Of a DNA stretch of 64,000 nucleotides, positions 15,839 through 63,570 are shown in pieces (positions within the stretch are counted from its first letter, which is position 1; every line of letters begins with the position of its first letter). A program made the position numbers and the translations under genes. The stretch is from Adineta vaga. Taxonomy: Eukaryota > Animalia > Rotifera. The notes under the pieces are model-generated. The model was given only the letters and a program-made list of their open reading frames with translations. It searched no databases and was not told the origin of the DNA. Location of the stretch: contig CP075493.1 in the NCBI GenBank assembly GCA_021613535.1, positions 14,570,001 to 14,634,000 of the forward strand. The letters run 5' to 3'.

Positions 15839-17345
15839 TTAATCTCGTTCTGGTGGATTAATATTATGAATAAGCATTTCTTCATGTGGTAAAATAATGG
15901 ATAATTTAAATAATTGGTCTTCATCTAAATCGAAACTAGATGAAACATCAAATAAATGTTTAAGAATTCTTTTAAATCTATCAGCTAAGAGATCAATTGT
16001 TTTTTGTTCAAATAATTGATTTGCATAATCAAAGTAGAATTCAATTGTTTTTTTCTCTAAATTACATCGAACAACTAATGTTAAATCAACTGGTGTTAAT
16101 TTTGAATCACGTGGAAATTCTTTATGATTTGTTAGAGGTATTTGATTTAAAACTAAATTCTGATCAATATCAAGAATCCATTTTTCATCATCAATATCAA
16201 CACGAAGGCCAACTTGAGAAAATGGATGTTGATTTGAACCACATTTTCTTGCATATGCAATTAAATTTTGATATGGATAAGCCGAATGTTCTTTGATTCT
16301 TGTACATAATTCATCAATTTTTTCAACAAATTGATTAAAACTTTGATGTGGATCAAGAACATGTCGATAAATAATAAAATTTTCTAATGGACCAATAATA
16401 GAAGTTAATTGTGGTCTTGAACGATTTGGTGTTACTCCAAGAACAGAAAAATCAGTATCTTGAGTTATTTTGAATAGATAAAAATAAACGAAAAAAATTG
16501 ATATTCGTCTTTTGTTCATAACGAAGTATTTGTCTTGTTAATGATGGATCAATATCAAATGAATAATATGAACCAGATGAAATAAATATTGCTTTATTAT
16601 CATATGGAAGATTGATTCGTTGTCGAAAATCATAATCAGCAAATAAATCTTCCCAAAATTCTTCCGATTTACTTAAATCCAATTGACGTTCATAATATGA
16701 AAAATCAATGAATCTCAAAAGATTTTGATCTTTGTTAGTTTTTTCATTTTGATATTCCAATGTTAATTGTTTGACAAATAAATATTTGGAATGATAATCA
16801 ACAGCTGAATGATGAAAGATCAATAAGATATAATCATTTTTTTTCAAACGATTCTTTTCTTTTTCATTTTCTTTCAATAAACAACAACGAAAGATGTGTC
16901 CTTTATTCAAATCAAAATCTTTTCTTATTTGTTCTTTGTAAATGACTTCATCTATCTTTTCTTGATCTGCAACATCCACTGTTGTTATATCAAATGAATA
17001 CATATCTTTATTGAATGGATTGAGTTTCTGTTGAATGCAATGTTCTTCTAAATCATAATCCAGTTCAGTACCAAAGATTTCATTTTGACTCAGAACATTT
17101 TCAATAGCTTGACGAAAACGATTAATTGCTAAATATCCATCTTGAATTTGATAGAGTAGAATGGAATTATAATTGAATAATTTCTCGTCTTTGCTTGTAT
17201 ACGTTGCACGAATTGATTCATCAAGCCAAATGCGTTCTTGGCTGTAGGAAGTTTTACCTATATAACAAATTTATAATAAAAACTTTCTTTTTCTTGAAAT
17301 CAAACCTTTTTTGATGTTTAATCGTTTCCATTCTTCATCGGCCAT
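15839..17345 (-). CDS. Stand-alone NRPS condensation (C) domain gene with one intron and an internal frameshift (possibly a pseudogene)
   Basis: ATG at 17345, 48-nt intron at 17258-17305. C1 motif SYSQERIWLDE, active-site HHSAVD, FIDFSYYER, FW, LPYD, NRSRPQLTSIIGPLEN, YPYQ, DLTL, YANQLFEQKTI. Frame switch near 16470-16490; stop after LSIILPHEE..N. Confidence 0.85.
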
Positions 17346-20230: not shown

Positions 20231-20444
20231 TGTCTTTTTTCATTTGAAATTGTCATGCTTGTACCGCTCATGAAAAGGACTACCAAGAACAAAATCTGTT
20301 TAACCATATAACGATTCGTGAACAGTTAGATAACACGTTCAAAATTCCTGTTTTTTCTTCGTAATTGACCAAAATTAAGTAAACTAATGAAGATACTGAA
20401 GTAATTGCTGTGTCATCGAATAATAATTCAACATCACTTTGATT
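20231..20444. repeat. Left arm of a long inverted repeat (partner at 22829-23042)
   Basis: Reverse complement of 22829-23042, with 8 mismatches in 214 bp by manual comparison. Weaker gapped similarity extends outward to ~20130. Confidence 0.95.
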
Positions 20445-20725
20445 CTATTGATATTCATATATATATATATATAAAGATCTTTTGTATAATCTTAACAATA
20501 GATACACATCAATCGATTTCGATTAGGAGCATGTAGATGTTTGTTCTTTGTATATTCTCATGCACACCCACACCGATTATATATCTTCAAAAGACAAAAT
20601 GTCATAAAACTTATTTCAATACATCCAATCATTTATACAAGCGTGGTTTATTTATTGTAATTGAAATATATTAGCTTTTAGTCGCATTTGTTTTTATTCG
20701 AACAATTTATACAATATTATAATCT

Positions 20726-22008
20726 TTATAGGGAGGGAAAATATGAATCAAAGTTTTTTGAACCAATCGTTAATCCAGGTGCGAATAAACCTCTGAGATG
20801 AGCGCATTTGGAACGTATTACATCGTTAGTAAAATTATCTGTTATAGTTACTAGTGTTTCGTATCCAATTAGAAGTTCTTTCAAACAAGGTAAATGAGTT
20901 TTATCTGAAAGAAATTGTATGGCATAGTCATTATGTGCATTGACAAGATTGAGTGTGAAGAGACGACGAAATGTAAGCAATTCTAATGAATGACTTTGTT
21001 TATTTTCTTGTACTTGATGATTGTTAATAATTATTAATTTATTAAGAAAAGGAAAATCTTGACAGATAATTTTGAATAACGGCTGTTCAAATGGGCGTGT
21101 ATCACGCATTAATAATGTTCGAACTGTATCGAATATACGTCCACCACGAAAAGATGTAACATTCGACGAAGTAATGGAAGAACTCGTTTATCATAATAAT
21201 ATGTATCACACTTTGTTGTCAGTGAAAAACATTTTAATTTGATAACTTTTTCCTGAAAAATGAAAGTAATGAATAGATTTTGAAGAGAAATTTATTTATA
21301 TGCGATAATTACTGTATTGTCCATCATTGATAATGAACGACGAATTTTATCGATACAAATGTTTAACGTTAATAAACATGGAAGACGATGATCAAGAAGA
21401 AATAGACATTCGTTCAAAGTATTAACATCGATTTTCAATTTGGTAAGAGTTGAAGATAAAATTCTCGGACGTTAAAAAGTTAAAGACGAAATTGTTATCC
21501 ATTTTTCTGAAGACCATTGAGCAAAGGTAAAATCTTTTAAGCATTTACCGTACATTAGTATTTTTCAAAGATATTTGACTCAGTTCCATTAAATGTTTCT
21601 GGTTCGTCAGAATAAATTTCGACCCTAAGATTCATAATTTGATTATCAAGAAGACGCAATATAGGGTCACCTGAAATGTAATTGAGGATAATTGAAAGAA
21701 CCAATAGATTTCATAAAAAATGGACTACTAGTCAATTTCTCTATCTTCGCAGAAATTCTAGGTAAGATTGTCGAAAAAATTCTATCGAGAATATCAGTAC
21801 TCATCGAAGAATTGGAAATATCAGATTGTTCTTCCGAAAAATTAAGATGATAGATATAAAGAGGATCGAATACTAACTGATTAAATCGTTCATTTATATT
21901 TACCAATGAATAGAATATATCTATCGTACTCAGTTTATTGAAAATAGCACGTAACAATTCATCTGGTAAATCTAATATATTGATATCATGACCATTTGAA
22001 ATATTCAT
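20726..22008 (-). pseudogene. Rotifer-type F-box protein gene with a disrupted middle, enclosed by inverted repeats
   Basis: N-terminal F-box (NILDLPDELLRAIFNKLSTIDIFYSLVNINERFNQL) and C-terminal DTRPFEQPLFKIICQDFPFL...NFDSYFPSL*. The intervening sequence has stops and frameshifts. Confidence 0.75.
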
Positions 22009-22828
22009 GTCTATTATTTTTTTTCGATGTTTCTATTCCAATACTCGTTCAATCTGTATATATATACATATATATAGAAGGAGTGATTTTTCTCGCTGCC
22101 GTTCACAAGAATAATACAGAGACAATGATGCTATGTTAAGGCGAGAATGTCTGATACTATATTTTTCCTGCCAAATATTTCTTTCACTGATAAGAATAAA
22201 AAGCGACACGGCCATTTTTCATTACAATAACCTTGTTTAGATTGTATTGAAATAAAGCACTCAATACTTGAAATAGTTGATTCTTGAATTTTTTCATCAA
22301 ACACAAGTGTTGCTATGCTTTGTGTCAATCTTAGAGATGCTGCATTATCATACCCACTTGCAGTGTATAAATTTTATTCATTCAAACATTTTCATACGAT
22401 TTATTTGTGCATCTGCAATACATTTTTTAAGTTGGTGTTCGAAATATTTGAAATAGAAATATTATTAAATTTCTATCACTTTTCATAACATGAACAAATT
22501 GTTGTCTAATAGAAGTTCGAATGTAAATGATGATTTTGGAAAAATACCCACACACACGAAAATGAAACTATTCGTATCTTTTTCTATCCTTACAGATAAA
22601 CATTGTATATGAATTCCAAGCATATCTAAGGAAAAAGAAATGTACTTTTATCCTGTCAATTAGAAACCATAAATACGCACATCTATATAATCTTAAACAT
22701 GTTTATCAGTTATAACGATCAATGAGACTCTATACATACCGATAGGAAAGTTGAAATCATATATTATTTCTCTAATCAAACATTTTCAAAAGTTAAAATC
22801 TCGAAGATGAATGTGTATGAGAATATCA

Positions 22829-23042
22829 AATCAAAGTGACATTGAATTATTATTCGATGACACAGCAATTACTTCCATATCTTCATTAGTTTACTTAATT
22901 TTGGTCAATTACGAAGAAAAAACAGGAATTTTGGACGTGTTATCTAACTGTTCACGAATCGTTATATGGTTAAACAGATTTTGTTCTTGGTAGTCCTTTT
23001 CATGAGCGGTACAAGCATGACAATTCTAAATGACAAAAGACA
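22829..23042. repeat. Right arm of a long inverted repeat (partner at 20231-20444)
   Basis: Reverse complement of 20231-20444 (~96% identity). Weaker similarity extends to ~23110. Confidence 0.95.
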
Positions 23043-23416
23043 GACTTGGTCTTTTTGTTGATTGAAGTGATTCATTTCGAGAAAAGAAAAGTTTTATTGA
23101 AAAAGTTTTTCCAGTAAATAATTGTCTGAAAGATTTCTTTTTGAGATCTATTTCTGTTGTCGACAAGAGGATTCTTTTAATTGTGTTACAATATTTGCTA
23201 CTTCTGAAGGAGATCCACCTTTTCTCTTTTCCACATCAGTTAATCGGCAGTCTAAAGATGATATGGTGAAAGAGGAAGTCATGAGACACGTGCTTTTTCT
23301 TCTAAAACTGTTACTACTCTTACAGAGATGCTGGAGGAGAAAACAAGAAAAGAAGAAAATGAATCAGTATATGATATAAAACGGACAAAGCAGATAAATT
23401 CATCTTCATTTCAAAT

Positions 23417-24410
23417 ATGGTTAATAGTACGTTATACGAAGGTTTAACAGCAAGAGTAAGAGCTGAATTTCGAAGTTTTATTGAAGTGTTCTAAACCATT
23501 GATTCTTTTCTAGATTGATGCTGGTCGTTTACTTGAAGATATTCAAATTTACAACTTGATTACAGCACGACCGGAAGACAATGAAAAGGAAATTGAAAAA
23601 TCAAGATTGTTAGTAAAATTTATCAACACAGCATCAAATGCAACTTTCGAAGAGAACGTGAAAATTGAAGGTAATACGATACAATTTATGATTGTATGAA
23701 ACATTTCTTTTCATAGAACCTGTTAATTATGATGACGACGAAAATGATAGTGGTGAAGAAGACATTCAAACAAATCTCCTGGTTTATAGTTTTCGTCATA
23801 ATTCTAGTAATTTATTCTTAATTGTTTTATAGAAAAACTCGACAACGAACACAAAAACAAAGTTCGAACTTTTGGTGGTTTTATAAACTTTAAAAAGTCG
23901 AAAGAATTTCTCAAAGATTGTATACAACTAATCTCTGAAGAAACAATTTATGATATGGTCTTGTGGGCCATAAATATGGAAATGAGAGATGTAAAATCTG
24001 CTTTTTAATCTTATTTTATCCAATAAACAAAACTTATTCTAGGAGTTCACATCAACCGAACGCATTACACATCAAACGATGGTCCTCGAGTTTATTTTGA
24101 AATTAATGAAAACTAGTTCATCATTAGATCCATTTGATTGTGTACGAACATTCTTTACCAAGTAAGATCCATTAATCAATTTTATTCCAAAAGAAAAATG
24201 AACGTTTTGCTTAGAATGACGGCTAATGATGATCAAGAATATTCTAAAACACTTAGGAAGGAACTTCGTAAGCTTCGACGATTTGTTCATGATTATGCAA
24301 GAAAGAAAAATGATGAACTTGTTGAAAAAGAGTGGGTAAACACAGTCCAGTCAGACGAAATCAATAAAAATGCTTTTTTTTTTTAGATAAGAACAAAAAC
24401 ATTCAAATGA
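23417..24410 (+). CDS. Divergent Cdc37-like protein (Hsp90-binding middle domain)
   Basis: Spliced exons give KVRTFGGFINFKKSKEFLKDCIQLISEENNYDMVLWAINMEM..ERITHQTMVLEFILKLMKTSSSLDPFDCVRTFFTK..DQEYSKTLRKEL. This aligns with the Cdc37 M-domain pattern (IKHFG..SQKYL..LVCEE..LVIWCIDLE..VAHQTIVMQFILELAK..DPRACFRQFFTK). Confidence 0.75.
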
Positions 24411-24728
24411 AAAAATCTGACTTTCATTATCTGATTTTATTTCTAAGCTTTCTTTCGTCTTTGTCATATTATTTATCTGCAATAAAAATTCTTTTAATCT
24501 TCATAACTGAACATTATTATAATTCATATGCATATACATATATATGTACATATTTATGAATTCTACAAAAAGTACATCTAAAGAAAATCATGACTACATA
24601 GTATGACATCTATATAAATTTCTTTGCAAGCATTTTTTGATTGGTTCAATAAAAACTAAATAAATGACAATTGAAGTGAATTAATGACGCTGATAATAAT
24701 AATAATAATTTCAAAGAAAAAACAAGAG

Positions 24729-25579
24729 ATGGAGTTTGATCAACAGTGTATGTTTTATTACTTCAATAAAATATTTTTCTAAGAATTAACTTATTTATTT
24801 ATTAGTATTTATTAATGAATTAAGTCTAATAAAATCCAATAAATATATTGATGAATTAAATTTAACTAGTAAATATTCTACAGGAACAATTAATGATGAA
24901 AATGATAAAGATTTAAATATTAATATTGTTCAATGTTTAAATGAAGAAGTTCATAGTGTAAGACCATTTATTCAAACAACAAATGATGATCAGATTGTAC
25001 CAAAAAAATCATTTTTTCATCTAATTATTTACCGATCCAAGCAATTGTATCCTGTAAAATTCAATTTTTTGAATGAACTTTATTTCTTTATCTTTATTTA
25101 GATTGAAGGATCATTATTAAATGTAAATCAATGGAATAAATTAATCAGTTGGAATGTAAAAAACTTAAATAAACATTGGAAATTATTATATCAAGGAAGT
25201 CGTGATGGTTTTCATTCGAAAGATTTTCATCGTTTATGTGATGATCAAGGACCAACAATAACTGTCATTCGTACAAAACAAGGATATATTTGTGGATTTT
25301 CAAAATGATTCACATGCTTTTCTTTTTGCATTTTCAACAAATTCAGCAATAAAATATCCATTGATCGATCGTCATAGTAAATATTCTGTATGGAATAGTC
25401 CAACATATGGTCCGACATTTGGTCGTGGTGCTGATCTATTTATTTGTTCGGAAAGTAATTTAATTGGTGAATCATATTCAAAATTTCCTTCTTCATATCG
25501 TGATACGACTGGTCTAGGATGGAAATCCTTATCTGGAAAACAACAATTTCTTATTGATGAGATTGAAATTTATCATTAA
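24729..25579 (+). CDS. TLDc-domain protein with a frameshifting deletion near 25295 (possibly a pseudogene)
   Basis: WKLLYQGSRDGFHSKDFHRLCDDQGPTITVIRTKQGYICGF, then a frame change to DSHAFLF..YGPTFGRGADLFI..F.IDEIEIY*. Introns at ~24748-24805 and ~25054-25101. Confidence 0.8.
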
Positions 25580-25615
25580 CAGTTTTTTTAACGAAAGGTT
25601 TTTATTGTTTTAGAT

Positions 25616-27783: not shown

Positions 27784-28529
27784 AGGAAAACGTGCAATTT
27801 TCTTTCTTTTTTTCTTCTTCCAATAAATTTTAATTCTTTAACATCAATATTAGAATGTCTTCAAGTAATAAAAGATGATACTTTTTTTTGATTATCTAGA
27901 CAAGAACTAACTAGCAACATAAATCCTCGTCATCTAGTTATTTCTTTAAAATAGAAAGCAAGCTTCTGTTTCTTACACAATCGATAATCATATGTTAAAA
28001 TTGCTGTAAGAAAGGATAAAAGAAAATAATACATGCATACAGAAATATTCATGGTCATACTTCATTGAGTGTTTTCCTGAAGAAAACTGTAATACATAAG
28101 TTCTATGTGGATCTATTTTATGTATATATAAAATAGAATTTATTGGTATTTCATTCATTCTGATCAGTTTTATTATTTTCTTCTTGATTTAGTAAAGGTC
28201 TTTTATCAATAAAAGTATATTTTACTGCAAATATTATGATTTAATGCTGATCAAATAGTTCTTGTTAAAAAATAATTCACATAGAAATAGAAATATATCT
28301 CTATTTCTTTTATTAAATGTATTCTACGAACAGAGGATTTATACGGAATTTGACAAACTAACTATGTTGCCAAGAATTAGAAGTAGTTTTCTTTCTCTCA
28401 TTGCTATTGTCGAACATTGAGAATGAAAAGTATCTGATTAAGAAGAATTTCATCATTATCTATTTTAGAAAAATTAATGATATTAATTGTTGTTCATAAG
28501 TTTTAAGAATATGATCACAGCTATAAACT

Positions 28530-28941
28530 TTAGTTGCTGAGAAAGCTTTTGAGTATAATGCTATATAATGAGACCATGATGGCAGGTAATGGAGCAGCAG
28601 GTTGGTCCAATTGCTGAAAAAGACGTCCCAACTGATATGTTGCTTCTTGACCAATTTGTACAGCAATAACATGACCAATAAATACACATATCTGGACTGT
28701 TATTGATGATAATGAAGGTACTATCGATAAAAGCATTAAATTGAGTATGAAAAAATCATCGAGACCGAGACATGCATTATCACCTTTTACATGTAATATA
28801 TTTTCATTAGGATTCCAAGTAATGTAATATTGAGCTGGTCTTGATGTGTCGTCATTGGTTAAATCCGATGTATCGACAGGTGGTGAATCTTCGATTGTTT
28901 TCGAACTATAATAAGCTCCTTCAGGATGCAGACATTGAAAT
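28530..28941 (-). CDS. Exon of an unknown gene or pseudogene; upstream exons unresolved
   Basis: Open frame after an AG acceptor near 28942: FQCLHPEGAYYSSKTIEDSPPVDTSDL...LLSIVPSLSSITVQICVFIGHVIAVQIG.... The upstream splice donor is not clean. Confidence 0.35.
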
Positions 28942-29445
28942 CTATATATATGAAAAAGAAATCTTCTAAAAAGTAAAATAATCGATGGGATTCATTTTCT
29001 TTGATAATCAGTTCACATATAATGTCTTTCCTAAAAAAATGAGTTCCATCTGATAGTGCTATCGATTGGAAACATTTCTTATAATTTCACGTAGAAAAAT
29101 ATATTAGATATTTACATCATATACAAATAATTCATCTTGTTGAGAAAACATTTGACTCTTAACAAGTAAATGTCGATCGGAACTTCTGATCGTATAGCGA
29201 TTGCAAAGTATATTCAAAACAAACAGTAAAAAATTGATTATTCATCGAATAGACTATGGTGATTATCATAGAAATAATTGTCTATTCAAGATAACAGGAA
29301 TCTTTTATTCGAATCTATGGAAAGTATAAAATCCATTTTTTCTTTTTATATTTATTTCTCTCGAATACAGTATTAACCATCTTATGCCTAAAAATTGACG
29401 TTTTTCGAGTTTTTTCATAGAAATCTTAATTAACTTCTTCAATAC

Positions 29446-30060
29446 CTACATGTCTCTAATAGAAAACATCCAAAAATATACCCAATGAACATGTGATGGA
29501 AAATAAGAAAATAAAATATCATAAAAAATCCATGCGTTACAGGACATCAATAAACATAACCATCCTCGATAGAGAGTTAACGATGATATTAGCAATTCTT
29601 CTAGTTCCCATTTATCAGTAATAAACATCAATTGCCAAATGAATACATACATGGTAAATATATCAAGTTTATAATCAAGATGATAATTGTCGAAAAAACG
29701 AGCCAAACAGCAATTATTGTATATATTAAAGGATAAATATAATATAGTATTTTCTTCTTATCGAACAAATAGAAAATTGTTAATAATAAAATCATTATTA
29801 CTCTAAATAAATTGCCAAAAATCTTCGGATCAATATCCCACACATATTCACATGAATCTTTGTTTACTACAAAATAACAAAATGTGACAAAAAGAACAAA
29901 ATATTGTTGTGGTAAATTCACTTTGATTTTTATTTAATAAACAGCGTATATAAAGACACATATCACGTATTGAATCGACGAATAGTCTTTGAAAAATGAA
30001 ATTAGTTGCTCGTGTATTTTTCAAATTATACTTCAATAAAAATGTTATTGTCATGCGCAA
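29446..30060 (-). pseudogene. Frameshifted multi-pass membrane protein gene, probably an old divergent paralog of the 211-aa genes
   Basis: Three overlapping hydrophobic ORFs of similar total length. Same position relative to an ADA2 3' end as the 211-aa genes. Similar C-terminus (VHWVYFWMFSIRDM vs VQWFCVQFWCNPNFKM). Confidence 0.45.
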
Positions 30061-30668
30061 TTTGAAGCAACGTCAACAATATTGATATTTATCACAAAGC
30101 GGATCAGTTAGCTTTTTTATTTAAATAATTGTTGGTAGAAATAAGGTGGATAATTATAATTTTTATCATAACAAAAGGATCAATACAACTATACCTAAAG
30201 ATTTTACTTTTCAGTTGAAATGCCATGAAAACATTGGATTATTCTTTTCTGTATCAGATTCCCTAGAGAAGATATTCTTGCAAGTTTTTTATAAGCATTA
30301 TATCAAGAGAAATTCTCCGTGTCGATGCTGTATAATTCATATCGACATGTGAAATTCACAATTTTGCAGAATTCTAGTGATTTTTCCATTTACAAGTTCC
30401 ATTAAGAATGCATATAAATAAGAACTCACAATTTGTGTTTAAAGATACATTCGTCAAGTAATAAATACATTCATAGAGATATCTCCGATAAAATAGAAAT
30501 CGTTCAAATGTACTAGCAACAATCCTTACTACTGCATACAAGCTCTTAAAGTCTATTTCAATGTGTCTACAGTTTAGAAGCTCTAATATAAATAAGTCCT
30601 AATGGTGAAACATGTTTGTTTTTCAAATAATAATTGACAAAAAATTTACAAGTGAACAATGATGAGAT

Positions 30669-31079
30669 TTAAACATCATAGAATTGTTCATCCATTGAAT
30701 TTGAATTCAATTTTCTTCTTTTATTTGGTGATGTTTGTTGAACAACAAGTTGATGTCGTGTTAACATTCGATTCGTCTTTGGTGTCGATTGATCCGATGG
30801 ATCAAATCTAAATTTTCAAAGGAGAACATTTTTTACACGAAATATTTATCTTCTCTTTGCCTTACTTTGTTCCACCATTTGTATGATTAGACGATTTTTT
30901 ATTATGTGGAGAATTTCTCTACAAGATTTAGATCAATAGAATGGAAAAACATAAAGTCGAATCAAATACCGTTGGTTTTTTCTCTGAATTAGGATGAGGT
31001 GGTGTGTGACTTCGTGTTCGTGAAGCGACCGTTGATTGATTTTCACCTATTCGAGGTGTTGATAATTGATCGGTTTCAT
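30669..31079 (-). pseudogene. 3' fragment (last exons) of the ADA2-like gene; third copy
   Basis: Nearly identical to 33721-34130 and 38362-38772, including introns. Truncated at a TTTCAT junction. Confidence 0.9.
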
Positions 31080-31343
31080 TTTGTTTCCTCTGATAAATTT
31101 TCGTGCGGCTACTTTATCGAACACCTTTTAGAAATGATTCTAGGTAATTTTTAAAGTTTTAGATTTGATTAGTTCATTCTACTATTCAAGAAATAATTGA
31201 CAAAATCGACAATATGATCTGATCATTCGTTAGAAGAATTTATGTTTTTTTCTAAAAGTAGTCTTGGTTCTTTATTGAAATAGTAAAATAAAAAAATGTA
31301 TGTGTTTTCAGAGAACAAGAAGAAATGAATGTCAGCTCATATT

Positions 31344-31899
31344 CTATTTGTCTACGAAATGCATCAAATAAATAGACATTAATAATTTGATTAATGTAAC
31401 AGATATTAGACCAAGAAGTGATATTCCTGTATTCCATATTGTTTCTGTAGCGTTTAGACCACTGCGCACGATATTTTGACGTTTATATTTAATTTCCATG
31501 AATCTATTGACCAATTGATCCAATATATATCCCATCAACCAGTTGATTGCAAAACTAATAATAGGAATAGGGATTAATGCATCCATTAATAATTCAATAA
31601 TAAGAAGATCAAAAAAGGATGCAATTAATATGATAAATCGAAAAAGTATGTTATATTTGAAAAGCACCTTCATATGAAATTGAATATCAAATGTATTTAA
31701 TTTATCTTGTGCGTTTCTTACGATAACCAGTAATTTTCGATAAACATGATAAATCACTATGATGATATACTGAACAAAAATGAACAATACGATAATAAAC
31801 CAATGTAGGTTTTCTTGTATGAATTTTGCTGCTCGTTCGTAATTCTAAAAGACACGACAATGTTTAATGTATTATTCAGCATAAAATACTTTTTACCAT
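31344..31899 (-). CDS. Orphan membrane protein TMa, copy 1 (167 aa)
   Basis: ATG-only first coding exon (31897-31899) and a 52-nt intron (31845-31896), then MNYERAAKFIQENLHWFIIVLFIFVQYIIIV...; about 4 hydrophobic segments. Same exon structure as the homolog at 35978-36522. Confidence 0.75.
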
Positions 31900-32382
31900 T
31901 CATACAACGTGGACCTGAATGTGAAATGAAATCTTCTATCTGAAGATATATGAAAAGGAGGAAAATATGGATATAATTAAATAACGAATGAAATTCTTCT
32001 TCGTCATACTTAGATGACAGTATATGTATAGATAGTGTTTTCCTTTCATATTCTTCTCATGTAAGAAAAGCAGCTGATAACTAGATTCAAATCGACTTTT
32101 TCGTCACAAAAAACCGAAAATCGATTAAAAATATTGTTGAAAAAATTTTTCTGAAAAATTTGATTTTAAATAGAGAAAATTCGACATTCTTATTAGTCAC
32201 ATATAAACGTAATTTCTATCTGATAAAAAACTGTAAAAATTTAAGTACAAATTCCAAATATCAGTGCATGTTGATGAGAATTATCTCTAGTTTATTTTGA
32301 CAATACGAATAATATAAAGAAACAATCATCACTTCAAGATTTGAATTTATTTTTACAATTTCATCTAATTAAATGACTTATA

Positions 32383-33018
32383 TCACATCTTGAAATTAGG
32401 ATTGCACCAGAACTGGACGCAAAACCACTGGACACCATTGATTGCTGACAAAGGGTGTGTTTCGGCATATCGCATTCCAATGAATAGTAGTACTTTTTGT
32501 GCAATTATCAAACGATGAGCTGACGGTCTAGGTAGGTTGGAGGGGTTAAAATCAGATAAAATGTCGGATAGATCGATCAAGACGAGCACAAATGATAGGC
32601 CAAAAGAAGCTTCTATTATCCAACGATAAAAAGTCATCAGCGTGATAGTATGAAAAGTGTTGGTGCACCGCATCCATGAGCACAAAGCTGCAGCGATCAC
32701 ATAAACAAATATTAATGCAATTTGTTTTAACAAAATATAACAACGAAAATGAGGATATTCTACATTTGAATTAATTCTATCAAAATCAATTTCGTGTGGA
32801 GGACGATCGCAAAACATTTCTTTGTAAAAAACATTAATAAAATATATCGGCATAGTTATACAATTTGAGAAAAAACATTCAATAAAGAATGAATACATAA
32901 TTTGTGATTGTAGCCACAGATACATATTTGTGAAACATATTGGCAATTCGATCCTTGTTTCATTGTTTGTTGCTTCATACGTATTGAGAACCATATTCAT
33001 TCTGTTATCGAACAACAT
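32383..33018 (-). CDS. Orphan intronless multi-pass membrane protein TMb, copy 1 (211 aa)
   Basis: The ORF is preserved at identical length in both duplicate units despite 31 amino-acid differences. Several hydrophobic segments. Confidence 0.75.
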   Translation of the reverse strand: MLFDNRMNMVLNTYEATNNETRIELPICFTNMYLWLQSQIMYSFFIECFFSNCITMPIYFINVFYKEMFCDRPPHEIDFDRINSNVEYPHFRCYILLKQIALIFVYVIAAALCSWMRCTNTFHTITLMTFYRWIIEASFGLSFVLVLIDLSDILSDFNPSNLPRPSAHRLIIAQKVLLFIGMRYAETHPLSAINGVQWFCVQFWCNPNFKM

Positions 33019-33720
33019 TGATCAGAGAAAAAAATGAATGTCAAATTGAGTGAGTTCATACTATATATATGAATTCCTTTGTGCTTATTCGTCTGCATCT
33101 TTATCAAGAGGTAACATTGTTGACTATGCCGACCAGACTGAACAAAAACAATCCAATGGAAACATGCGATATATATTCGTCGGCTAACTTACGTCACATT
33201 CGATAGCAATATTATTTACGACATCATGTCAATATCAAACGAAGCACAACGTGTACAACGTAATAATATAATTTTTTCCTTCAAACTGACTTCTGCAGAT
33301 TCATATTTTTAGCTGTGCCATAGAGAAGGCTAAAAGAAAGTCATTATTTTCAATCTATTGTAATAGGAAATTTATTTTTCTTTTATTGAAAATCAGTGAG
33401 GACGTTAAACCATGTATCCTTAAAATTGAATTTTTATATTTTTAATTAAATTATTAAGCTGAATCACGCTTCAGCATTTAACTCAACTGTAATCAATAAA
33501 AAACTTCCGGCTGATGCGATAGTTATAGTAAATCACCATGGAAATATCATCAGGTTCGTCTTGATTCAACCTACACCATCTTTCAATCAGATGATTATAT
33601 GTCCAAATAAGATCAATATCTACGTCTTATCGACGTTAGTTATAAGGAAAATCTGTTTATTTGTTTTTCAAATAATAATGGAAATGAAATGTACAAGACG
33701 AAAAGAAAAATGATATGTAT

Positions 33721-35548
33721 TTAAACATCATAGAATTGTTCATCCATTGAATTTGAATTCAATTTTCTTCTTTTATTTGGTGATATTTGTTGAACAACAA
33801 GTTGATGTCGTGTTAACATTCGATTCGTCTTTGGTGTCGATTGATCCGATGGATCAAATCTAAATTTTCAAAGGAGAACATTTTTTACACGAACTATTTA
33901 TCTTTCTCTTTGCCTTACTTTGTTCCACCATTTGTATGATTAGAAGATTTTTTATTATGTGGAGAATTTCTCTACAAGATTTAGATCAATAGAATGGAAA
34001 AACATAAAGTCGAATCAAATACCGTTGGTTTTTTCTCTGAATTAGGATGAGGTGGTGTGTGACTTCGTGTTCGTGAAGCGACCGTTGATTGATTTTCACC
34101 TATTCGAGGTGTTGATAATTGATCGATTTCATCATCTGTTGAGTCCCAACTAATACTTTTGAAATGAAAAGATAAATATTTTGATTTGGAACAAAAACTG
34201 ATTTTCTTACTCAGATGTTGTTAATAGATTTCCAGTTGATCTTGTCGTTCTTTGTGAAATACTCTAGAAAAGAAATTCAATATATATCTTTATAGAAAAG
34301 AAAATAACTCAAATACATTTTGATCCGATTGATTAACTCTTCGTCGTGTATAAAGTAATTCTTTAACATTTGTGGCTTTTGATGAAGTATTTGTTGTTGA
34401 TGATGACGAAGAAACACGTCGAACGGAACGTCGTTTTCCATTTAGAAGTTTTCGATCAGTGATCTCTTCACTTTGATCACTCGATGAAAGAGATGAGTTT
34501 GATTCAGTTGCATTTGATGATAATGTTGAAGATGATGAACATGATGACGATTCATCAACAACAATTGATCTACATATAAGATCAAAAATCTCATTTTAAA
34601 CAATTTCTTGTTTATAAAAAGAAAAAACTAACGAAGCACGACGACGACGTTTTTCAGAATTCATTATATTGATCAGCAGAAAGAAATCGACTAATTTGAT
34701 GAAGATCCATTCTAAAAATAAACAAATAATCAACAAAAAGCAAAGAAAAAAGTAAACTTACGGTTGATCAGGTGAATAATTAAATCCAAGTGCATAATCT
34801 CGAATAAAATGTTTCAATTGTAATCTTCTTTGTATGGTTTGTTTATATGATCTTAATAAAACTAATTTAGCTTTATTTAATAATATTCTTGAACCATCTT
34901 GTTGAATATCTTCAAGAAAATCTTGATCATTTGTTAATATTGGTAAACGATTTTCATCTTCATTTAAATATTCTCTTTCATATTCATCTCTATGTGGCAT
35001 ATATGTAAGAGTCTTTTGTTGTTCACTATCGATTAATAATGGTGGATAAATAATTGATTGATTTGGAAAATCTTTATCATTGATTTGATTTTCACCAATT
35101 AATTGTTTTGTATTTCGAAAAGTTTGAAAATAAATTGAATATGGATTTGTTAAATGTGATAGATACATTTCTTCAAAATGAGTTTGACAATCCGATGAAG
35201 TTCGAGATAATTTCGAAGCAATATCAATCCAATTTCCTAATCCACATGTTTCAATCGCTTCAATTAAATTCATTTCATCATTACATAACCATTCACTGTT
35301 TCGATTATTATCTAATGGAATATCATTTAACTAAATAGAAATTCAACGAGATTTATTTTTAATTTATGAACTTTTAAATAAAAATTTACTTTATAGGTTG
35401 ATAGTGGATGTTGTTTTGAATGTTCTCGTAATTGATTAACAGTTATTGAACATTTTATACAAATTTTTATCGAACGTGATGGACTACATTTTAAACAAAC
35501 TATTTCTAATGATGATGGACGAATACAGCGATAATCATATTTAGTCAT
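33721..35548 (-). pseudogene. Duplicated ADA2-like gene with ZZ cysteine substitutions and a frameshifting ~220-bp deletion
   Basis: MTKYDYRC vs MNKCDYCC in the intact copy. The deletion at ~34667 gives ...ADQYNEF-stop. Native upstream region absent. Confidence 0.85.
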
Positions 35549-35977
35549 CTATAAAATTTCATATCAAATTATTGATTCTTTTCAGAGATTATAATTGCAT
35601 TATCAGTGAATATACGTTCGACTATGTATGAATATTTTAAATGAATTTCATTTTGTTTTTTTCTCATAAATTTTCGTGCGGTTACTTTATCGGACATCTA
35701 TAAAGAAATTACTTTAGTTAACATTAATAGCTTAAGATTCGATAAATTGATTCTGCAATTGAAGAGAAAAATAATTGAAAAAATAACAATAGTGTGGAAT
35801 CATTTTTAAAAACAGTTCATGTTATCTTTCTCAATGAAGAACAAGACTTCTTGTTGAACGATCATAAAAATAAAAAATAAAAAGAGTTATATAAATGTGT
35901 TTAACAAGCTAGTATGAATATCAATGTCAATGATCAACAATAGAAGATATTCAAAAACGTTTATATGTTCCATTGTC

Positions 35978-36522
35978 CTAAATTGTTAACATAACGACCA
36001 TGATTAATGTTATTTTACAAATAGCTATCACTGTAAAAGGAACAACAGCCATCCAACATTTCCATACAGTATCAGCAGCAGCAGCAACGGTATTTTTTAA
36101 ATAATTATCTTGTTTATATTTCTTGTCAACGTATTTATCGGCTAGTTTGTCAGTTAAGTATCCAACGACCCATGTGATCGCAAAATTCACAAATGGATGA
36201 AATGATAATGCATCAAAGAATACTTCATTCACACACAAATCAATGAACATAGTAATTGCATTTGATAAACGAAAAATAATCATATGATTCCTGACAAATT
36301 GTACTTGATTCGAGATAAATGAACCACGCTCATTTTTTCGAACTAAACTTAATAGTTTTCTACCTATACAATGGACTAAGATTATCACATATTGTACAAC
36401 GAGAAAAATAATGATTAGTACTAAACCGAAGTAATTGTTAATCCATTCAGTACTTCGTTCGTAACTCTAAAATTTAGTAAGAGTTTTTATTTTCTTCTTT
36501 AAGATAAACTATTGTTTACCAT
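35978..36522 (-). CDS. Orphan membrane protein TMa, copy 2 (163 aa)
   Basis: ATG-only first coding exon (36520-36522) and a 53-nt intron (36467-36519), then MSYERSTEWINNYFGLVLIIIFLVVQYVIILV.... Shares YER, VQY, RKLL, FR, DL..E...DAL, FAI.W..GY and KYK with copy 1. Confidence 0.75.
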
Positions 36523-37024
36523 TTTGTTTCTTTTAATAAAGTGAAAAGAAGAATAAATGAAAGAAAGTAAATAAAACTTTTCTAAAAGTATATGAAAAGG
36601 AGGAAAATATGGATATAATTAAATAACGAATGAAATTCTTCTTCGTCATACTTAGATGACAGTATATGTATAGATAGTGTTTTCCTTTCATATTCTTCTC
36701 ATGTAAGAAAAGCAGCAAATCACTAGATTCAAATCGACTTTTTCGTCACAAAAAACCGAAAATCGATTAAAAATATTGTTGAAAAAATTTTTCTGAAAAA
36801 TTTGATTTTAAATAGAGAAAATTCGACATTCTTATTAGTCACATATAAACGTAATTTCTATCTGATAAAAACCTTGAAATATTTCAGTACAAATTCCAAA
36901 TATCAGTGCATGTTGATGAGAATTATCTCTAGTTTATTTTGACAATACGAATAATATAAAGAAACAATCATCACTTCAAGATTTGAATTTATTTTTACAA
37001 TTTCATCTAATTAAATGACTTCTA

Positions 37025-37660
37025 TCACATCTTGAAATTGGGATTGCACCAGAACTGGACGCAAAACCACTGGAAACCATTGATTGCTGACAAAGGATGT
37101 GTTTCGGCATATCGCATTCCAATGAATAGTAGTACTTTATGCGCAATTATTAAAGGATGAGCTGACGGTCTAGGTAGGTTGGTGAAGTTGAAATTAGATC
37201 CATTATCAGATAGCTCGATCAACACGAACACAAATGATAGGCCAAAAGAAGCTTCTATTATCCAACGATAAAAAGTCATCAGCGTGATAGTATGAAAAGT
37301 GTTGCTGCACCGCATCCATGAGCACAAAGCTGCAGCGATCACATAAACAAATATTAATGCAATTTGTTTTAACAAAATATAACAACGAAAATGAGGATAT
37401 TCTACATTTGAATTAATTCCATCAAAATCAATTTCTTGTGGAGGACGATCGCGAAAGATATCTCTGCAAAACAAATGAAATAAAAGTATCGGTATGACTA
37501 TAAAATGTGAGAAAAAACATTCAACACAGAATGAATACATAATTTGTGATTGTAGCCACAGATATATATTTGTGAAACATATTGGCAATTCGATCCTTGT
37601 TTCATTGTTTATTGCTTCATACGTATTGAGAACCATATTCATTCTGTTATCGAACAACAT
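37025..37660 (-). CDS. Orphan intronless multi-pass membrane protein TMb, copy 2 (211 aa)
   Basis: About 85% amino-acid identity to 32383-33018; ORF intact. Confidence 0.75.
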   Translation of the reverse strand: MLFDNRMNMVLNTYEAINNETRIELPICFTNIYLWLQSQIMYSFCVECFFSHFIVIPILLFHLFCRDIFRDRPPQEIDFDGINSNVEYPHFRCYILLKQIALIFVYVIAAALCSWMRCSNTFHTITLMTFYRWIIEASFGLSFVFVLIELSDNGSNFNFTNLPRPSAHPLIIAHKVLLFIGMRYAETHPLSAINGFQWFCVQFWCNPNFKM

Positions 37661-38361
37661 TGATCAGAGAAAAAATGAATGTCAGGTTGAGTGAGTTCAT
37701 ACTATATATATGAATTCCTTTGTGCTTATCCGTCTGCATCTTTATCAAGAGGTAACATTGTTGACTATACCGACCGGGCTGAACAAAAACAATCCAATGG
37801 AAACATGCGATATATATTCGTCGACTAACTTACGTCACATTCGACAGCAATATTATTTACGACATCATGTCAATATCAAACGAAACAAAACGCATGTTAC
37901 GTAATAATATAATTTTTTGCTACAAACTGACTTCTGCGGATTCATATTTTTAGCTGTGCCATAGAGAAGGCTGAAAGAAAGTCATTATTTTCAATCTATT
38001 GTAATAGGAAATTTATTTTTCTTTTATTGAAAATCAGTGAGGACATTAAACCATGTATCCTTAAAATTGAATTTTTATATTTTTAATTAAATTATTAAGC
38101 TGAATCACGCTTTAGCATCTAACTCAACTGTGATCAATAAAAAACTTCCAACTGATGCAATAGTTATAGTAAATCACCATGGAAATATCATCAGGTTCGT
38201 CTTGATTTAACCTACACCATCTTTCAATCAGATGATTAGATGTCCAAATAAGATCAATATCTACGTCTTACCGACGTTAGTTATAAGGAAAATCTGTTTA
38301 TTTGTTTTTCAAATAATAATGGAAATGAAATATACAAGAAGAAAAGAAAAATGATATGTAT

Positions 38362-40429
38362 TTAAACATCATAGAATTGTTCATCCATTGAATTCGAATT
38401 CAATTTTCTTCTTTTATTTGGTGATGTTTGTTGAACAACAAGTTGATGTCGTGTTAACATTCGATTCGTCTTTGGTGTCGATTGATCCGATGGATCAAAT
38501 CTAAATGTTCAAAGGAGAACATTTTTTACACGAACTATTTATCTTTCTCTTTGCCTTACTTTGTTCCACCATTTGTATGATTAGAAGATTTTTTATTATG
38601 TGGAGAATTTCTCTACAAGATTTAGATCAATAGAATGGAAAAACATAAAGTCGAATCAAATACCGTTGATTTTTTCTCTGAATTAGGATGAGGTGGTGTG
38701 TGACTTCGTGTTCGTGAAGCGACCGTTGATTGATTTTCACCTATTCGAGGTGTTGATAATTGATCGATTTCATCATCTGTAGAATCCCAACTAATACTTT
38801 TGAAATGAAAAGATAAATATTTCGATTTGGAACAAAAACTGATTTTCTTACTCAGATGTTGTTAATAGATTTCCAGTTGATCTTGTCGTTCTTTGTGAAA
38901 TACTCTATAAAAGAAATTCAATATATATCTTTATAGAAAAGAAAAGAATTCAAATACATTTTGATCCGATTGATTAACTCTTCGTCGTGTATAAAGTAAT
39001 TCTTTAACGTTTGTGGCTTTTGACGAAGTATTTGTTGTTGATGATGACGAAGAAACACGTCGAACAGAACGACGTTTTCCATTTAGAAGTTTTCGATCAG
39101 TGATCTCTTCACTTTGATTACTCGATGAAAGAGATGAGTTTGATTCAGTTCCATTTGATGATAATGATGTTGAAGAACTTGATGCAGTTGAAGCTGATGA
39201 ACACGATGATGATTCATCAACAACAATTGATCTACATATAAGATCAAAAATCTCATTTTAAACAATTTCTTGTTTATAAAAAGAAAAAACTAACGAAGCA
39301 CGACGACGACGTTTTTCTGAATTCATTATTGGTGATCGTTTTCCTTCAAAAAAACAAAACAAAACAATATAAATTGTAAGAGAAAGATTATATATTACTT
39401 GGTTGTGATTGATCATGATGACCATTCGATGATGTTGAACAACCAAGTTCTTCTAATAAACTTCGAATACCTAAAAATCAATTCAAATCTCAGTATAAAT
39501 CTACAAAAAATTGAAATACACGTCGATGATTGAAGATTAATCTTTCATATTGATCAGCAGAAAGAAATCGACTAATTTGATGAAGATCCATTCTTAAAAT
39601 AAACAAATAATCAACAAAAAGTAAAGAAAAAAGTAAACTTACGGTTGATCAGGTGAATAATTAAATCCAAGTGCATAATCTCGAATAAAATGTTTCAATT
39701 GTAATCTTCTTTGTATGGTTTGTTTATATGATCTTAATAAAACTAATTTAGCTTTATTTAATAATATTCTTGAACCATCTTGTTGAATATCTTCAAGAAA
39801 ATCTTGATCATTTGTTAATATTGGTAAACGATTTTCATCTTCATTTAAATATTCTCTTTCATATTCATCTCTATGTGGCATATATGTAAGAGTCTTTTGT
39901 TGTTCACTATCGATTAATAATGGTGGATAAATAATTGATTGATTTGGAAAATCTTTTTCATTAATTTGATTTTCACCAATTAATTGTTTCGTATTTCGAA
40001 ACGTTTGAAAATAAATTGAATATGGATTTGTTAAATGTGATAGATACATTTCTTCAAAATGAGTTTGACAATCTGATGAAGTTCGAGATAATTTCGAAGC
40101 AATATCAATCCAATTTCCTAATCCACATGTTTCAATCGCTTCAATTAAATTCATTTCATCATTACATAACCATTCACTGTTTCGATTATTATCTAATGGA
40201 ATATCATTTAACTAAATAGAAATTCAACGAGATTTATGTTTAATTAAGGAAATGTGAAATAAAAACTTACTTTGTAGGTTGATAGTGGATGTTGTTTTGA
40301 ATGTTCTCGTAATTGATTAACATTCATTGAACATTTTATACAAATTTTTATCGAACGTGATGGACTACATTTTAAACAAACTATTTCTAATGATGATGGA
40401 CGTATACAGCAATAATCACATTTATTCAT
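38362..40429 (-). CDS. TADA2: Transcriptional adapter 2 (ADA2/TADA2)-like protein: ZZ zinc finger, SANT domain and S/R-rich tail
   Basis: CDYC..CLKC..ICIKC..H...H ZZ finger, SANT (WLCNDEMNLIEAIETCGLGNWIDIASKL.RT..DC..HF) and ADA2 box YMPHRDEYEREYLNEDE. Multi-exon. Confidence 0.85.
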
Positions 40430-41088
40430 CGAAAGCAAGAATAATATATCAAATACGTTAACTAGAATAAAATTGAACCGTTCTTTTTTAATTATCTGAA
40501 ACGATTCATAATACAAAGGTCAAAGATTTCGACCAATGACATTTCTTCTAGGAATTTTTTATATAATACAGAATATAAGAAAAGATGTCGCTAATTACAA
40601 TTAGATTTCAATCTTTTTTTTACGTATGTTTTTGAAGAAAGATACAATAATGATTTCAAATGAATATAGTAACTCTCATATCACATTAGAAAATTCTTCT
40701 CCGATGTTTGTATAGTAACAATAAAGTAGAAATATTTAACCTCAAGCAATATCGGTAATAAAGTTTGTTCAAAGAAAGAAAAGAAAAGAAAAGAAAAATT
40801 GAATGAACAATTATCTGAAATAAATTATTAGAAAGATGAGAAAAGAATCAGAACGGTTGTTATTGACATTTCAAGATGTTGATTTGAAAGAAAAGAAAGA
40901 GAAAAGATTAAGAATCATTATTTGTGTAAATTTTCGAACAAAAAAAGAAAGAACGAGAACAGAAACATTTCTTTTTCGTTCTTGATTCTTTTTCTTTCAT
41001 TTAAACTGTTACTTTTTCTCTTCTACTTGAAAGAGAATTTTTTGTCAAAATAACAAACATAGTTAACGAAAGAAAATACGTTGAATAT

Positions 41089-58657: not shown

Positions 58658-58829
58658 TTTCATCTTCATGTTCTTTTCATATTGAATAAATATTTGGTTG
58701 AAATTATCAGCGATATATAAGCTTTTATTCAAAAGGAAAGATCGAGTAATCGAATACTTTTCCAGATGTTTTTTAAATTATGACTTCAAAAGAATATAAA
58801 GTGCAGAAGAAAAAAAAACAAATAAATGC

Positions 58830-59375
58830 TTAATCATTTGAAATAATTTTGTCACATTTAACATCCATAAGAAGAGTAGCTTGAGGTGGAATCACATCAC
58901 CAGCTCCAACATCTCCATATGCATATGATGGTGGTATAATCAATTTTCTTTCTTCACCTTCACAGATACTTGAAAAGAAAAGAAAAGAAAAGAAAAAAGA
59001 AACGAATGCAAATCAAATTAAACAAAGATCAAATGTCTTTTGATATACTCGAGTAAACCTTGGTCCCATCCTTGAATAGCTTGTCCATGTCCAATTTTGA
59101 AAATAAATGGATGACCACGATCGTACGATGAATCAAATTTGACTCCATTTGATTTTAAAACTCCCTGAAAATATCGGAATAAATTGTTTTCTTTCATAAA
59201 CTAAACATACCGTGTATTGCATGTGTAGAGTATCTCCGACTTTTGATCTTTTCGAACAACTAAGGACTTTTTTTGTTGTCATGACTTGTAATTTTTCTTG
59301 AGCAAACGATGAAACATTTGAAAAGAAATTGACGATAAATATGAACAAAACAACGAAGATTGTAATAGATTTCAT
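58830..59375 (-). CDS. FKBP2: Secretory-pathway FKBP-type peptidyl-prolyl isomerase (FKBP2-like), copy 1
   Basis: Signal peptide, then [16 protein letters not shown]|[36 protein letters not shown]|.[28 protein letters not shown]; two short introns. Confidence 0.9.
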
Positions 59376-63041: not shown

Positions 63042-63570
63042 TTATTCATCCGAAATAATTTTGTCACATTTAACATCCATAAGAAGAGTAGCTTGAGGTG
63101 GAATCACATCACCAGCTCCAACATCTCCATATGCATATGATGGTGGTATAATCAATTTTCTTTCTTCACCTTCACAGATACTTGAAAAGAAAAGAAACGA
63201 ATGCAAATCGAATTAAAAAAAGATCAGATGTCTTTTGCTTTACTCGAGTAAACCTTGGTCCCATCCTTGAATAGCCTGTCCATGTCCAATTTTGAAAATA
63301 AATGGATGACCACGATCGTACGATGAATCAAATTTAACTCCATTTGATTTTAAAACTCCCTGAAAATATCGGAATAAATTGTTTTCTTTCATAAATTAAA
63401 CATACCGTATATTGCATGTGTAGAGTATCTCCGACTTTTGATCTTTTTGAACAACTAAGAACTTTTTTTGTTGTCATGACTTGTAATTTTTCTTGAGCAA
63501 ACGATGAGACATTTGAAAAGAAATTGACGATAAATATGAACAAAACAACGAAAATTATACAAGATTTCAT
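63042..63570 (-). CDS. FKBP2: FKBP2-like peptidyl-prolyl isomerase, copy 2
   Basis: Near-identical direct duplicate of 58830-59375, ~4.2 kb downstream, with the same introns; ends ISDE* rather than ISND*. Confidence 0.9.

What the first reader, a model, noticed from the sequence alone, without database searches (positions are those of the whole stretch)
29446..40429. Tandem array of a two-gene orphan membrane-protein cassette that diversifies while its neighbours stay identical: candidate recognition, defence or toxin-antidote system
Seen: the minus-strand order ADA2 > TMb (211 aa) > TMa (~165 aa) recurs with a 4.64-kb period over about 2.5 units. ADA2 (1 amino-acid difference in the 171-aa exon ORF) and intergenic DNA are nearly identical between units. 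The two TMa genes are only ~30% identical by manual alignment, yet both keep an intact ORF and the same ATG-only first exon and intron. The two intact TMb genes differ at 31 of 211 residues, and a much older, broken TMb-like copy lies at 29446-30060. The extra ADA2 copies are broken, so the retained function of the duplication appears to be the TM pair. Inference: tightly linked, co-oriented, fast-diverging membrane-protein pairs that are stacked as different variants are typical of allorecognition, immune receptor/executor and toxin-antidote loci. I recognise no family for either protein.
Basis: partly seen in the sequence, partly recalled or inferred. Interest (0 to 1): 0.8.

Follow-up and report, generated by a model that had tools for sequence, protein, structure and literature searches.

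The report
Repeated block guarding divergent membrane genes
In what is likely a bdelloid rotifer, a three-gene block is repeated almost letter for letter except for one expressed gene of no known family, predicted to encode a membrane protein, whose copies share only 30% of their amino acids, likely because selection keeps several versions, possibly for recognising microbes.

Summary
The tandem array is real: two ADA2>TMb>TMa units plus a 465-bp ADA2 stub, with junctions bridged by DNA contigs. Units are 95-98% identical up to a splice-acceptor-like site just above TMa, then fall to about 55% across the TMa transcript. Both TMa genes are spliced and expressed, and RNA holds a third variant. 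Rough depth suggests about five units per diploid, with TMa1 on both homologues, so TMa1 and TMa2 are now paralogues. TMb is a real reading frame but is mostly homogenised with ADA2 (85% protein identity, dN/dS 1.0), so the two genes do not diverge in step. The 'old TMb copy' at 29446-30060 scores no better than shuffles. In another bdelloid-like genome ADA2 abuts AVL9 with no cassette. No family or fold was found for either protein. Best reading: an RCCX-like, concertedly evolving module whose TMa copies are likely kept distinct by selection, possibly as variable recognition proteins. No dN/dS is significantly above 1, so neutral escape from conversion is a strong rival. A toxin-antidote pair is unsupported.

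The parts
38362..40429 (-). ADA2 copy 1 (transcriptional adapter 2; ZZ exon, SANT/ADA exon, Ser-rich exons), intact and spliced
   Evidence: Pfam TADA2A-like_3rd E 3e-11, ZZ_ADA2 E 4e-5, below cut-off; RNA joints at 40211-40271, 39592-39643, 39468-39520, 39231-39295
37025..37660 (-). TMb1, 211-codon single ORF, 2-3 hydrophobic helices, no known family
   Evidence: homologue P0002 57% identical over 61% of the query; longest ORF in 300 shuffles of local DNA 132 codons
36581..36610 (-). 5' edge of the divergence peak in unit 1: pyrimidine tract ending in AG, a likely splice acceptor
   Evidence: 97% identity in the 200 bp above, 38-61% below; acceptor role inferred from sequence
35978..36521 (-). 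TMa1, 163 aa: ATG-only exon 36521-36519, 52-bp intron, exon 2; strong hydrophobic helix at 14-32
   Evidence: equals stored protein P0003; RNA contigs in 3 of 4 runs; DNA contig depth 0.99-1.02 of the flank
35550..35834 (-). TMa1 3' flank (73-77% identical to the TMa2 flank over 35834-35646) and junction to ADA2 copy 2
   Evidence: junction bridged by DNA contig 34666-35659 in run X1
33721..35548 (-). ADA2 copy 2, broken: C4Y and C7R in ZZ, 218-bp deletion at 34666/34667 giving an early stop
32383..33018 (-). TMb2, 211 codons; differs from TMb1 mainly at codons 45-81 and 145-174
31344..31939 (-). TMa2, 167 aa: likely acceptor at 31940, ATG-only exon 31900-31898, 53-bp intron, exon 2; 4 hydrophobic stretches
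   Evidence: equals stored protein P0001; spliced RNA joint 31844-31897; depth 1.5-1.8 of the flank
30615..31079 (-). ADA2 copy 3, 3' stub joined to the TMa2 flank at a short microhomology
   Evidence: its outer end is bridged to unique flank by contigs 29000-30696 in 3 of 3 DNA runs
29446..30060 (-).

Best explanation
This is a real tandem module (ADA2>TMb>TMa) that is likely kept uniform by unequal crossover and gene conversion, while the expressed TMa gene, predicted to encode a membrane protein, is likely shielded from that homogenisation by selection for carrying several distinct versions, possibly as variable recognition or target proteins against microbes. Shown: the array, its junctions, the broken passenger ADA2 copies, expression and splicing of both TMa genes, a third TMa variant, and a divergence peak that begins at the TMa 5' acceptor-like site and fades through the 3' flank. 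Inferred: conversion and unequal exchange (patchy identity among three variants), copy number of about five units per diploid, and selection on TMa. Speculative: the recognition role, which rests on the evolutionary pattern and hydrophobicity only. TMb is a coding passenger with at most one fast-changing segment (codons 45-81).
For: Identity is 97% in the 200 bp above the acceptor, 55% in the TMa coding exon, 61% in its intron and 73-77% in the distal 3' flank. Both ORFs and the exon-intron plan survive at pS 0.64, pN 0.43, dN/dS 0.44, p=1e-4, so both copies are constrained. RNA contigs cover TMa1 and TMa2 in 3 of 4 runs; they carry a TMa2-type variant with 23 listed differences in 31263-31479 and only 1 in the 5' half, giving 10 changed residues, all in residues 125-164. 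DNA contigs show further patches where a variant differs from two near-identical window copies (13 substitutions in 32097-32176). The two ADA2 passengers in the window are broken while the TMa copies are intact. Depth relative to the flank: TMa1 1.0, TMa2 1.5-1.8, ADA2 5' part 2.5-2.6, one-allele contigs 0.5-0.8. A divergence peak in converted duplicates is a described sign of selection (PMC3924837, passages).
Against: No comparison gives dN/dS significantly above 1: TMa1/TMa2 0.44 (near saturation), TMa2 vs its variant 0.60 (0.82 in the C-terminal part), TMb 45-81 3.7 but Fisher p=0.23 and chosen after the fact. A whole-gene island, intron and UTR included, is also what arises when old paralogues become too different to convert. 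Silent divergence of TMa1/TMa2 (pS 0.64) exceeds that of ADA2 between this window and four other organisms' loci (0.28-0.52), so the split may simply be old. Differences between ADA2 copies 1 and 2 are mostly silent in two exons (11 silent, 4 replacement), which fits recently joined functional haplotypes better than a long-dead passenger. Contig depth is not a true copy number (tool's warning). No family or fold supports a recognition role.
Confidence: 0.45

Rival explanations
1. Ordinary cluster turnover. TMa1 and TMa2 are old paralogues that drifted past the point where conversion can act, and the near-identical ADA2-TMb-promoter parts come from young duplication or ongoing conversion. The peak needs no selection for diversity.
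For: dN/dS below 1 in both TMa comparisons; intron and UTR as divergent as the coding exon; other lineage-specific blocks also interrupt synteny in this window, e.g. 20231-25600; an earlier unchecked scan note read a similar diatom pattern this way (e1-9545751).
Against: The boundary sits at the transcript's 5' acceptor-like site and the 3' flank is partly eroded (73-77%), as if exchange pressed in from both sides. A third, younger TMa2 variant changes 10 residues in the C-terminal part only. Passenger ADA2 copies decayed while both TMa copies did not.
Confidence: 0.3
2. Allele capture. TMa1 and TMa2 were ancient balanced alleles of a single ADA2>TMb>TMa locus, and unequal exchange stacked them on one chromosome, fixing the heterozygous state in an animal that otherwise loses heterozygosity.
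For: Flank divergence (1-4%) is in the range of bdelloid homologous divergence (1.4-4.6%; PMC5916493 passages). ADA2 copy 1/copy 2 differences are mostly silent, and an intact copy-2-like ADA2 is transcribed. Loss of heterozygosity by recombination is reported in A. vaga (PMC8494291 passages).
Against: Depth and run-to-run SNPs put TMa1 on both homologues in 3 of 3 DNA runs, so no single-unit haplotype was seen. pS 0.64 would be extreme for alleles. Conversion from the homologue can also give silent-biased ADA2 differences.
Confidence: 0.15
3. Cognate two-gene system (toxin-antidote or sensor-executor): each TMb variant neutralises or triggers its own TMa, with TMb codons 45-81 as the specificity segment.
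For: Both genes lie together, co-oriented, in each unit; both have hydrophobic helices; TMb 45-81 has 20.5 replacement and 1.5 silent changes against 15 and 8 elsewhere (p 0.02-0.07).
Against: TMb is 85% identical where TMa is 30%; the third TMb variant is silent-biased (7 of 10 new sites among the 40 of 183 rows shown; p=0.0014); linkage follows from co-duplication with ADA2; no third TMb copy; no linked pair outside this organism was found (0 of 9 loci, only 3 long enough).
Confidence: 0.08
4. Assembly artefact: two haplotypes were joined end to end.
For: Unit divergence is at allelic level; no laid contig spans the whole array.
Against: A DNA contig runs from the TMa1 flank into ADA2 copy 2 (34666-35659, run X1); others link TMa1 and TMa2 to the shared upstream DNA and the stub to the unique flank; repeated parts have 1.5-3.4 times flank depth. 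The TMa2-to-stub junction at 31079 was not among the rows shown.
Confidence: 0.02

Closest known systems
Human RCCX module (STK19-C4-CYP21-TNX; PMC8362596, passages read)
   Same: A multi-gene segment repeated in tandem, with truncated or frameshifted passenger copies (STK19B, TNXA; here ADA2 copies 2 and 3), unequal crossover and conversion, and likely unequal segment numbers on the two homologues.
   Different: C4A and C4B differ by four residues, whereas TMa copies differ at 70%; the retained genes here have no known family; no homology is implied.
Divergence peak under gene conversion (red/green opsin exon 5; Teshima-Innan model as reviewed in PMC3924837, passages read)
   Same: Homogenised flanks with a sharp island of divergence in tandem duplicates.
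   Different: The island covers a whole transcript including its intron and UTRs and is near silent-site saturation; selected sites are not identified.
Caenorhabditis hyper-divergent haplotypes (10.1101/2020.07.23.218420, abstract only)
   Same: Punctate deep divergence in a little-outcrossing animal, in genes suspected of environmental or pathogen response.
   Different: Those are alternative haplotypes; here the divergent versions sit side by side and TMa1 appears on both homologues.
Nematode toxin-antidote elements (peel-1/zeel-1, sup-35/pha-1, mll-1/smll-1; PMC11601442, passages read)
   Same: Two linked genes in a divergent region.
   Different: No killing, rescue, carrier/non-carrier split or co-divergence shown; their drive depends on crosses, which are at best rare in bdelloids (PMC7749112, abstract).
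Arabidopsis RPW8/HR cluster (PMC6684095, search listing only; size and tandem layout recalled)
   Same: Small helical proteins in a variable cluster tied to immunity (recalled).
   Different: No Pfam match of TMa to RPW8 or any other family above cut-off.

Membership tests
ADA2/TADA2 (neighbour gene) | ZZ finger plus ADA2-type helical domain | tested here: met
   TADA2A-like_3rd 43.6 bits over cut-off 27; ZZ_ADA2 E 4e-5 but 24.1 bits, under cut-off 27.5
RCCX-like tandem module (works-like) | Multi-gene segment repeated head to tail | tested here: met
RCCX-like tandem module (works-like) | Passenger genes truncated or frameshifted in extra segments | tested here: met
   ADA2 copies 2 and 3
RCCX-like tandem module (works-like) | Segment number varies between haplotypes | tested here: inconclusive
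   contig depth suggests 2 TMa1-type and about 3 TMa2-type units per diploid; depth is not a true copy number
Selected divergence peak under gene conversion | Low divergence in flanks, sharp peak at target | tested here: met
   97% to 55% to 73-77%
Selected divergence peak under gene conversion | Ongoing conversion between copies | tested here: inconclusive
   mosaic patches among three variants; no phased haplotypes or outgroup orthologue
Selected divergence peak under gene conversion | Selected sites under the peak | tested here: inconclusive
   dN/dS 0.44, 0.60, 0.82; none above 1
Toxin-antidote element | Two tightly linked genes | tested here: met
   TMb stop to TMa start about 0.5 kb in both units
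Toxin-antidote element | One product kills, the other rescues | not testable with these tools
   needs expression or crosses
Toxin-antidote element | Partners diverge together when stacked as cognate variants (expectation, from my own knowledge) | tested here: not met
   TMb 85% vs TMa 30%; third TMb variant silent-biased; one 37-codon segment is the exception
Toxin-antidote element | Carrier and non-carrier haplotypes in the population | tested here: inconclusive
   3 of 3 DNA runs carry both TMa types; they may be one clone
Hyper-divergent balanced haplotypes | Divergent versions are alternatives at one locus | tested here: inconclusive
   in tandem in the window and TMa1 at two-copy depth; past allelism not testable here
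Known small helical or membrane protein families (any Pfam, PHROG, PDB) | Profile match above cut-off | tested here: not met
   best Pfam E 0.02-0.09, all under cut-off; PHROG E 0.027; PDB sequences 0 hits at E<=1
Known small helical or membrane protein families (any Pfam, PHROG, PDB) | Shared fold | tested here: inconclusive
   models of low confidence (pLDDT 54 and 45); Foldseek no E<=0.001; best Z 7.6, rmsd 4.2, 113 aligned, a generic helical bundle

The most novel reading that the evidence does not exclude
TMa is a variable recognition locus of bdelloid rotifers whose ancient, balanced versions have been stacked side by side in a copy-number-variable module. A clonal animal that loses heterozygosity by recombination would thus keep several specificities permanently, with TMb codons 45-81 as a possible matching partner segment.
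Probability: 0.17. Interest if true: 0.82.

Novelty: new variant of a known kind. Interest (0 to 1): 0.5.

Why it matters
How bdelloids keep up with parasites with little or no sex is a long-standing question, and my searches listed no paper on a variable recognition or incompatibility locus in them. A small expressed orphan gene held at three versions inside a homogenised module is a compact, testable candidate: population sequencing can decide selection versus drift, and the genes are short enough to express. If it is neutral turnover, it is still a clean example of a whole transcript escaping concerted evolution, but of modest interest.

Tried and rejected
Old TMb copy at 29446-30060 and an old TMa copy at 28200-29200: not above shuffles. 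Another reading frame for TMb: the other five frames hold 7-18 stops. An intron inside TMb codons 42-66: the candidate acceptor keeps frame in copy 1 only (read by eye). TMb as a dead ORF: two open copies alone prove little (neutral simulations keep both open in 11-20% of trials), but the silent-biased third variant and homologue P0002 argue for coding. My first reading that TMa1 is on one homologue only was withdrawn once one-allele contigs set single-copy depth at 0.5-0.8 of the flank (notes). No RNA contig covered either TMb in 4 of 4 runs; contigs show presence, not absence, so this is not counted. Homologue searches: TMa2 found only itself; the TMa profile over 1.84 billion representatives found 4 proteins, the two TMa and two fragments of 88 and 63 aa; TMb found only P0002 (lengths near the query only, so fused forms were not searched). 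TMb relatives were not found in metagenome, viral or prokaryote contigs (339, 141 and 71 pattern matches, 0 confirmed) or phages. The TMb model (pLDDT 45) was not sent to a fold search. The complex prediction and the ESM Atlas were not available, so binding and feature-space relatives are untested. No whole genome is held, so other TMa/TMb copies elsewhere in this genome could not be sought. Earlier-findings searches by place and sequence were blank. No supplementary files were opened; gene lists in bdelloid infection or desiccation studies may bear on TMa expression.
Full report
Setting. The window is 28% G+C, with 50-63-bp spliceosomal introns, F-box genes and a condensation-domain gene. From my own knowledge these features fit a bdelloid rotifer; no call names the organism. 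No whole genome is held.

Anatomy. Self-blastn shows 31939-34667 matching 36581-39329 (95.3%) and 34666-35549 matching 39547-40430 (97.6%), a 465-bp third piece at 30615-31079 (95%), and a 74% match between 31074-31256 and 35646-35834. On the minus strand this reads ADA2-1 > TMb1 > TMa1 > ADA2-2 > TMb2 > TMa2 > ADA2 stub: two units and a stub. ADA2-2 has lost 218 bp, stops three codons after the break, and has C4Y and C7R in the ZZ finger. The stub joins the TMa2 flank at a short microhomology. The supposed old TMb copy at 29446-30060 sits where a third TMb would be expected, but it scores no better than shuffles in three tests.

Is it real? Contigs of three DNA runs from three studies were laid on the region (24 of 324 piece rows shown). 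One contig runs from the TMa1 flank 110 bp into unique DNA and on through ADA2-2. Others tie TMa1 and TMa2 to the shared upstream DNA, and the stub to the unique left flank. The junction at 31079 was not among the rows shown. Relative to the left flank, depth is 1.0 for TMa1, 1.5-1.8 for the TMa2 5' part, 2.5-2.6 for the ADA2 5' part, 2.9-3.4 for the ADA2 3' part and 0.5-0.8 for one-allele contigs. If one-allele contigs mark one copy, flanks and TMa1 are two copies, TMa2-type about three, and units about five per diploid. The tool warns that such depth is no copy number, so this is rough. SNPs in TMa1 that differ between runs also point to two TMa1 alleles.

Expression. Four runs guessed to be RNA show spliced joints with GT-AG ends, so they hold RNA. 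TMa1 and TMa2 are covered in 3 of 4. The TMa2 intron is skipped in 2 of 4, and exon-1 letters follow the TMa1 acceptor in 1 of 4. The TMa2 contigs differ from the window at 24 listed sites, 23 of them in 31263-31479 (40 of 46 rows shown). In the coding part these give 10 replacement and 5 silent codons, all replacements in residues 125-164. This is a third TMa version, identical to TMa2 in its first half. In 2 of 4 runs a contig matching the ADA2-2 big exon splices into the exon that ADA2-2 has partly lost, so an intact copy-2-like ADA2 exists off this haplotype; only the X18 contig covers sites that tell copy 2 from copy 1.

The peak. Identity between units is 97% in the 200 bp above a pyrimidine tract ending in AG, then 38% in the TMa 5' UTR, 61% in the intron, 55% in the coding exon, 41% in the near 3' flank (many gaps) and 73% in the distal flank. 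The break falls within a few bases of the AG in both units, so the two TMa genes share upstream DNA and differ over the transcript. TMa1/TMa2 dN/dS is 0.44 (pS 0.65, near saturation; p=1e-4), so both are constrained proteins. Their silent divergence exceeds that of the ADA2 exon between this window and four other organisms' loci (pS 0.28-0.52), though ADA2 has extreme third-position bias (GC3 0.08), which limits the comparison.

TMb. It is a 211-codon frame, against at most 132 codons in 300 shuffles, with one homologue, P0002, that starts near codon 62. TMb1/TMb2 dN/dS is 1.03 overall, 0.47 in codons 82-211 and 3.7 in codons 45-81 (p=0.23 against sites; 0.02-0.07 against the rest of the gene; segment chosen after seeing the data). 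ADA2 exons give 0.06 and 0.15. Among the 40 of 183 difference rows shown for DNA contigs, 14 fall in TMb; 10 are new letters, and 7 of these are silent against 22% expected (p=0.0014). TMb is therefore coding and mostly conserved, and it is homogenised along with ADA2 instead of diverging with TMa.

Relatives. A profile of the two TMa proteins over 1.84 billion representatives returned 4 proteins: the two themselves and fragments of 88 and 63 aa. No Pfam, PHROG or PDB family passed. Models are all-helical and of low confidence, and the TMa fold searches gave only generic bundles. Hydropathy gives TMa one strong helix at 14-32 and one to three weaker ones, and TMb two to three, so 'membrane protein' is a prediction. 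An ADA2 motif scan of metagenomes gave 9 loci. Three (L003, L004, L006; apparently one organism, 61% ADA2 identity) extend past ADA2. They keep the order riboflavin transporter, AVL9, ADA2, TTL, amine oxidase, but AVL9 ends about 0.14 kb from ADA2 where the window has 10.6 kb. None of the 9 loci hit TMa or TMb at E<=0.05. The cassette is thus not a fixed part of this neighbourhood, though those loci could be the second, paleo-duplicated copy of the region.

Mechanism. The layout works like human RCCX: a multi-gene segment that expands and contracts by unequal crossover, with broken passengers and conversion tracts (PMC8362596, passages). A sharp island of divergence within converted duplicates is a described mark of selection (PMC3924837, passages). 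I give 0.45 to this reading with a likely recognition or target role for TMa; the role itself is the weakest step. Allele capture (0.15) is favoured by allele-level flank divergence (1.4-4.6% in bdelloids; PMC5916493, passages) and by silent-biased ADA2 differences, and would matter because recombination erodes heterozygosity in A. vaga (PMC8494291, passages). A cognate toxin-antidote or sensor-executor pair (0.08) keeps only the linkage and the 45-81 segment. Artefact 0.02.

Novelty. The architecture is of a known kind; the whole-transcript peak with a boundary at the acceptor and the two unassigned protein families are the new part. Searches pairing bdelloid with allorecognition, toxin-antidote, balancing selection or positive selection (listings only) showed no paper on such a locus; subscription journals and supplements were not covered. 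Interest 0.5.

Noticed in passing
window 29338-29650: RNA contigs of 3 of 4 runs land here with foreign letters before 29338; a TTAA followed by a possible transposon-end motif lies at 29373 with no partner in the window. Possibly a dispersed repeat end.
   Followed up: partly
window 32863 and 31692: DNA contigs in 2 of 3 runs carry the TMb 5' part (to codon 52) or part of TMa2 and then run on into unrelated DNA: possible partial copies or insertions elsewhere.
   Followed up: no
window 40605-40852: All 3 DNA runs hold a form in which 246 bp upstream of ADA2 are replaced by 21 other letters, likely the other haplotype.
   Followed up: no
window 40430: An RNA contig ends at the ADA2 start with 8 foreign letters that resemble, from recall only, the end of the bdelloid spliced leader; copy 1 has CG and copy 2 has AG just before the ATG.
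   Followed up: partly
window 28530-28991 (-): 153-codon ORF with a hydrophobic C-terminal part, no Pfam or PHROG match, not TMa- or TMb-like, inside the block absent from L003.
   Followed up: partly
window 20231-25600: F-box gene(s) and a 226-bp inverted repeat (20231-20456 / 22821-23042, 95%) form a second block missing from the syntenic locus L003.
   Followed up: no
window 15839-17270 (-): Condensation-domain (NRPS-like) gene pieces, a type known from my own knowledge as horizontally acquired in bdelloids.
   Followed up: no
window 35690-35650 and 31125-31080: A roughly 50-bp block about 90% identical at the far end of both TMa 3' flanks, more conserved than the DNA around it; possibly a regulatory element.
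   Followed up: no
window 58825-59383 and 63037-63578: A 559-bp direct repeat at 93% identity.
   Followed up: no
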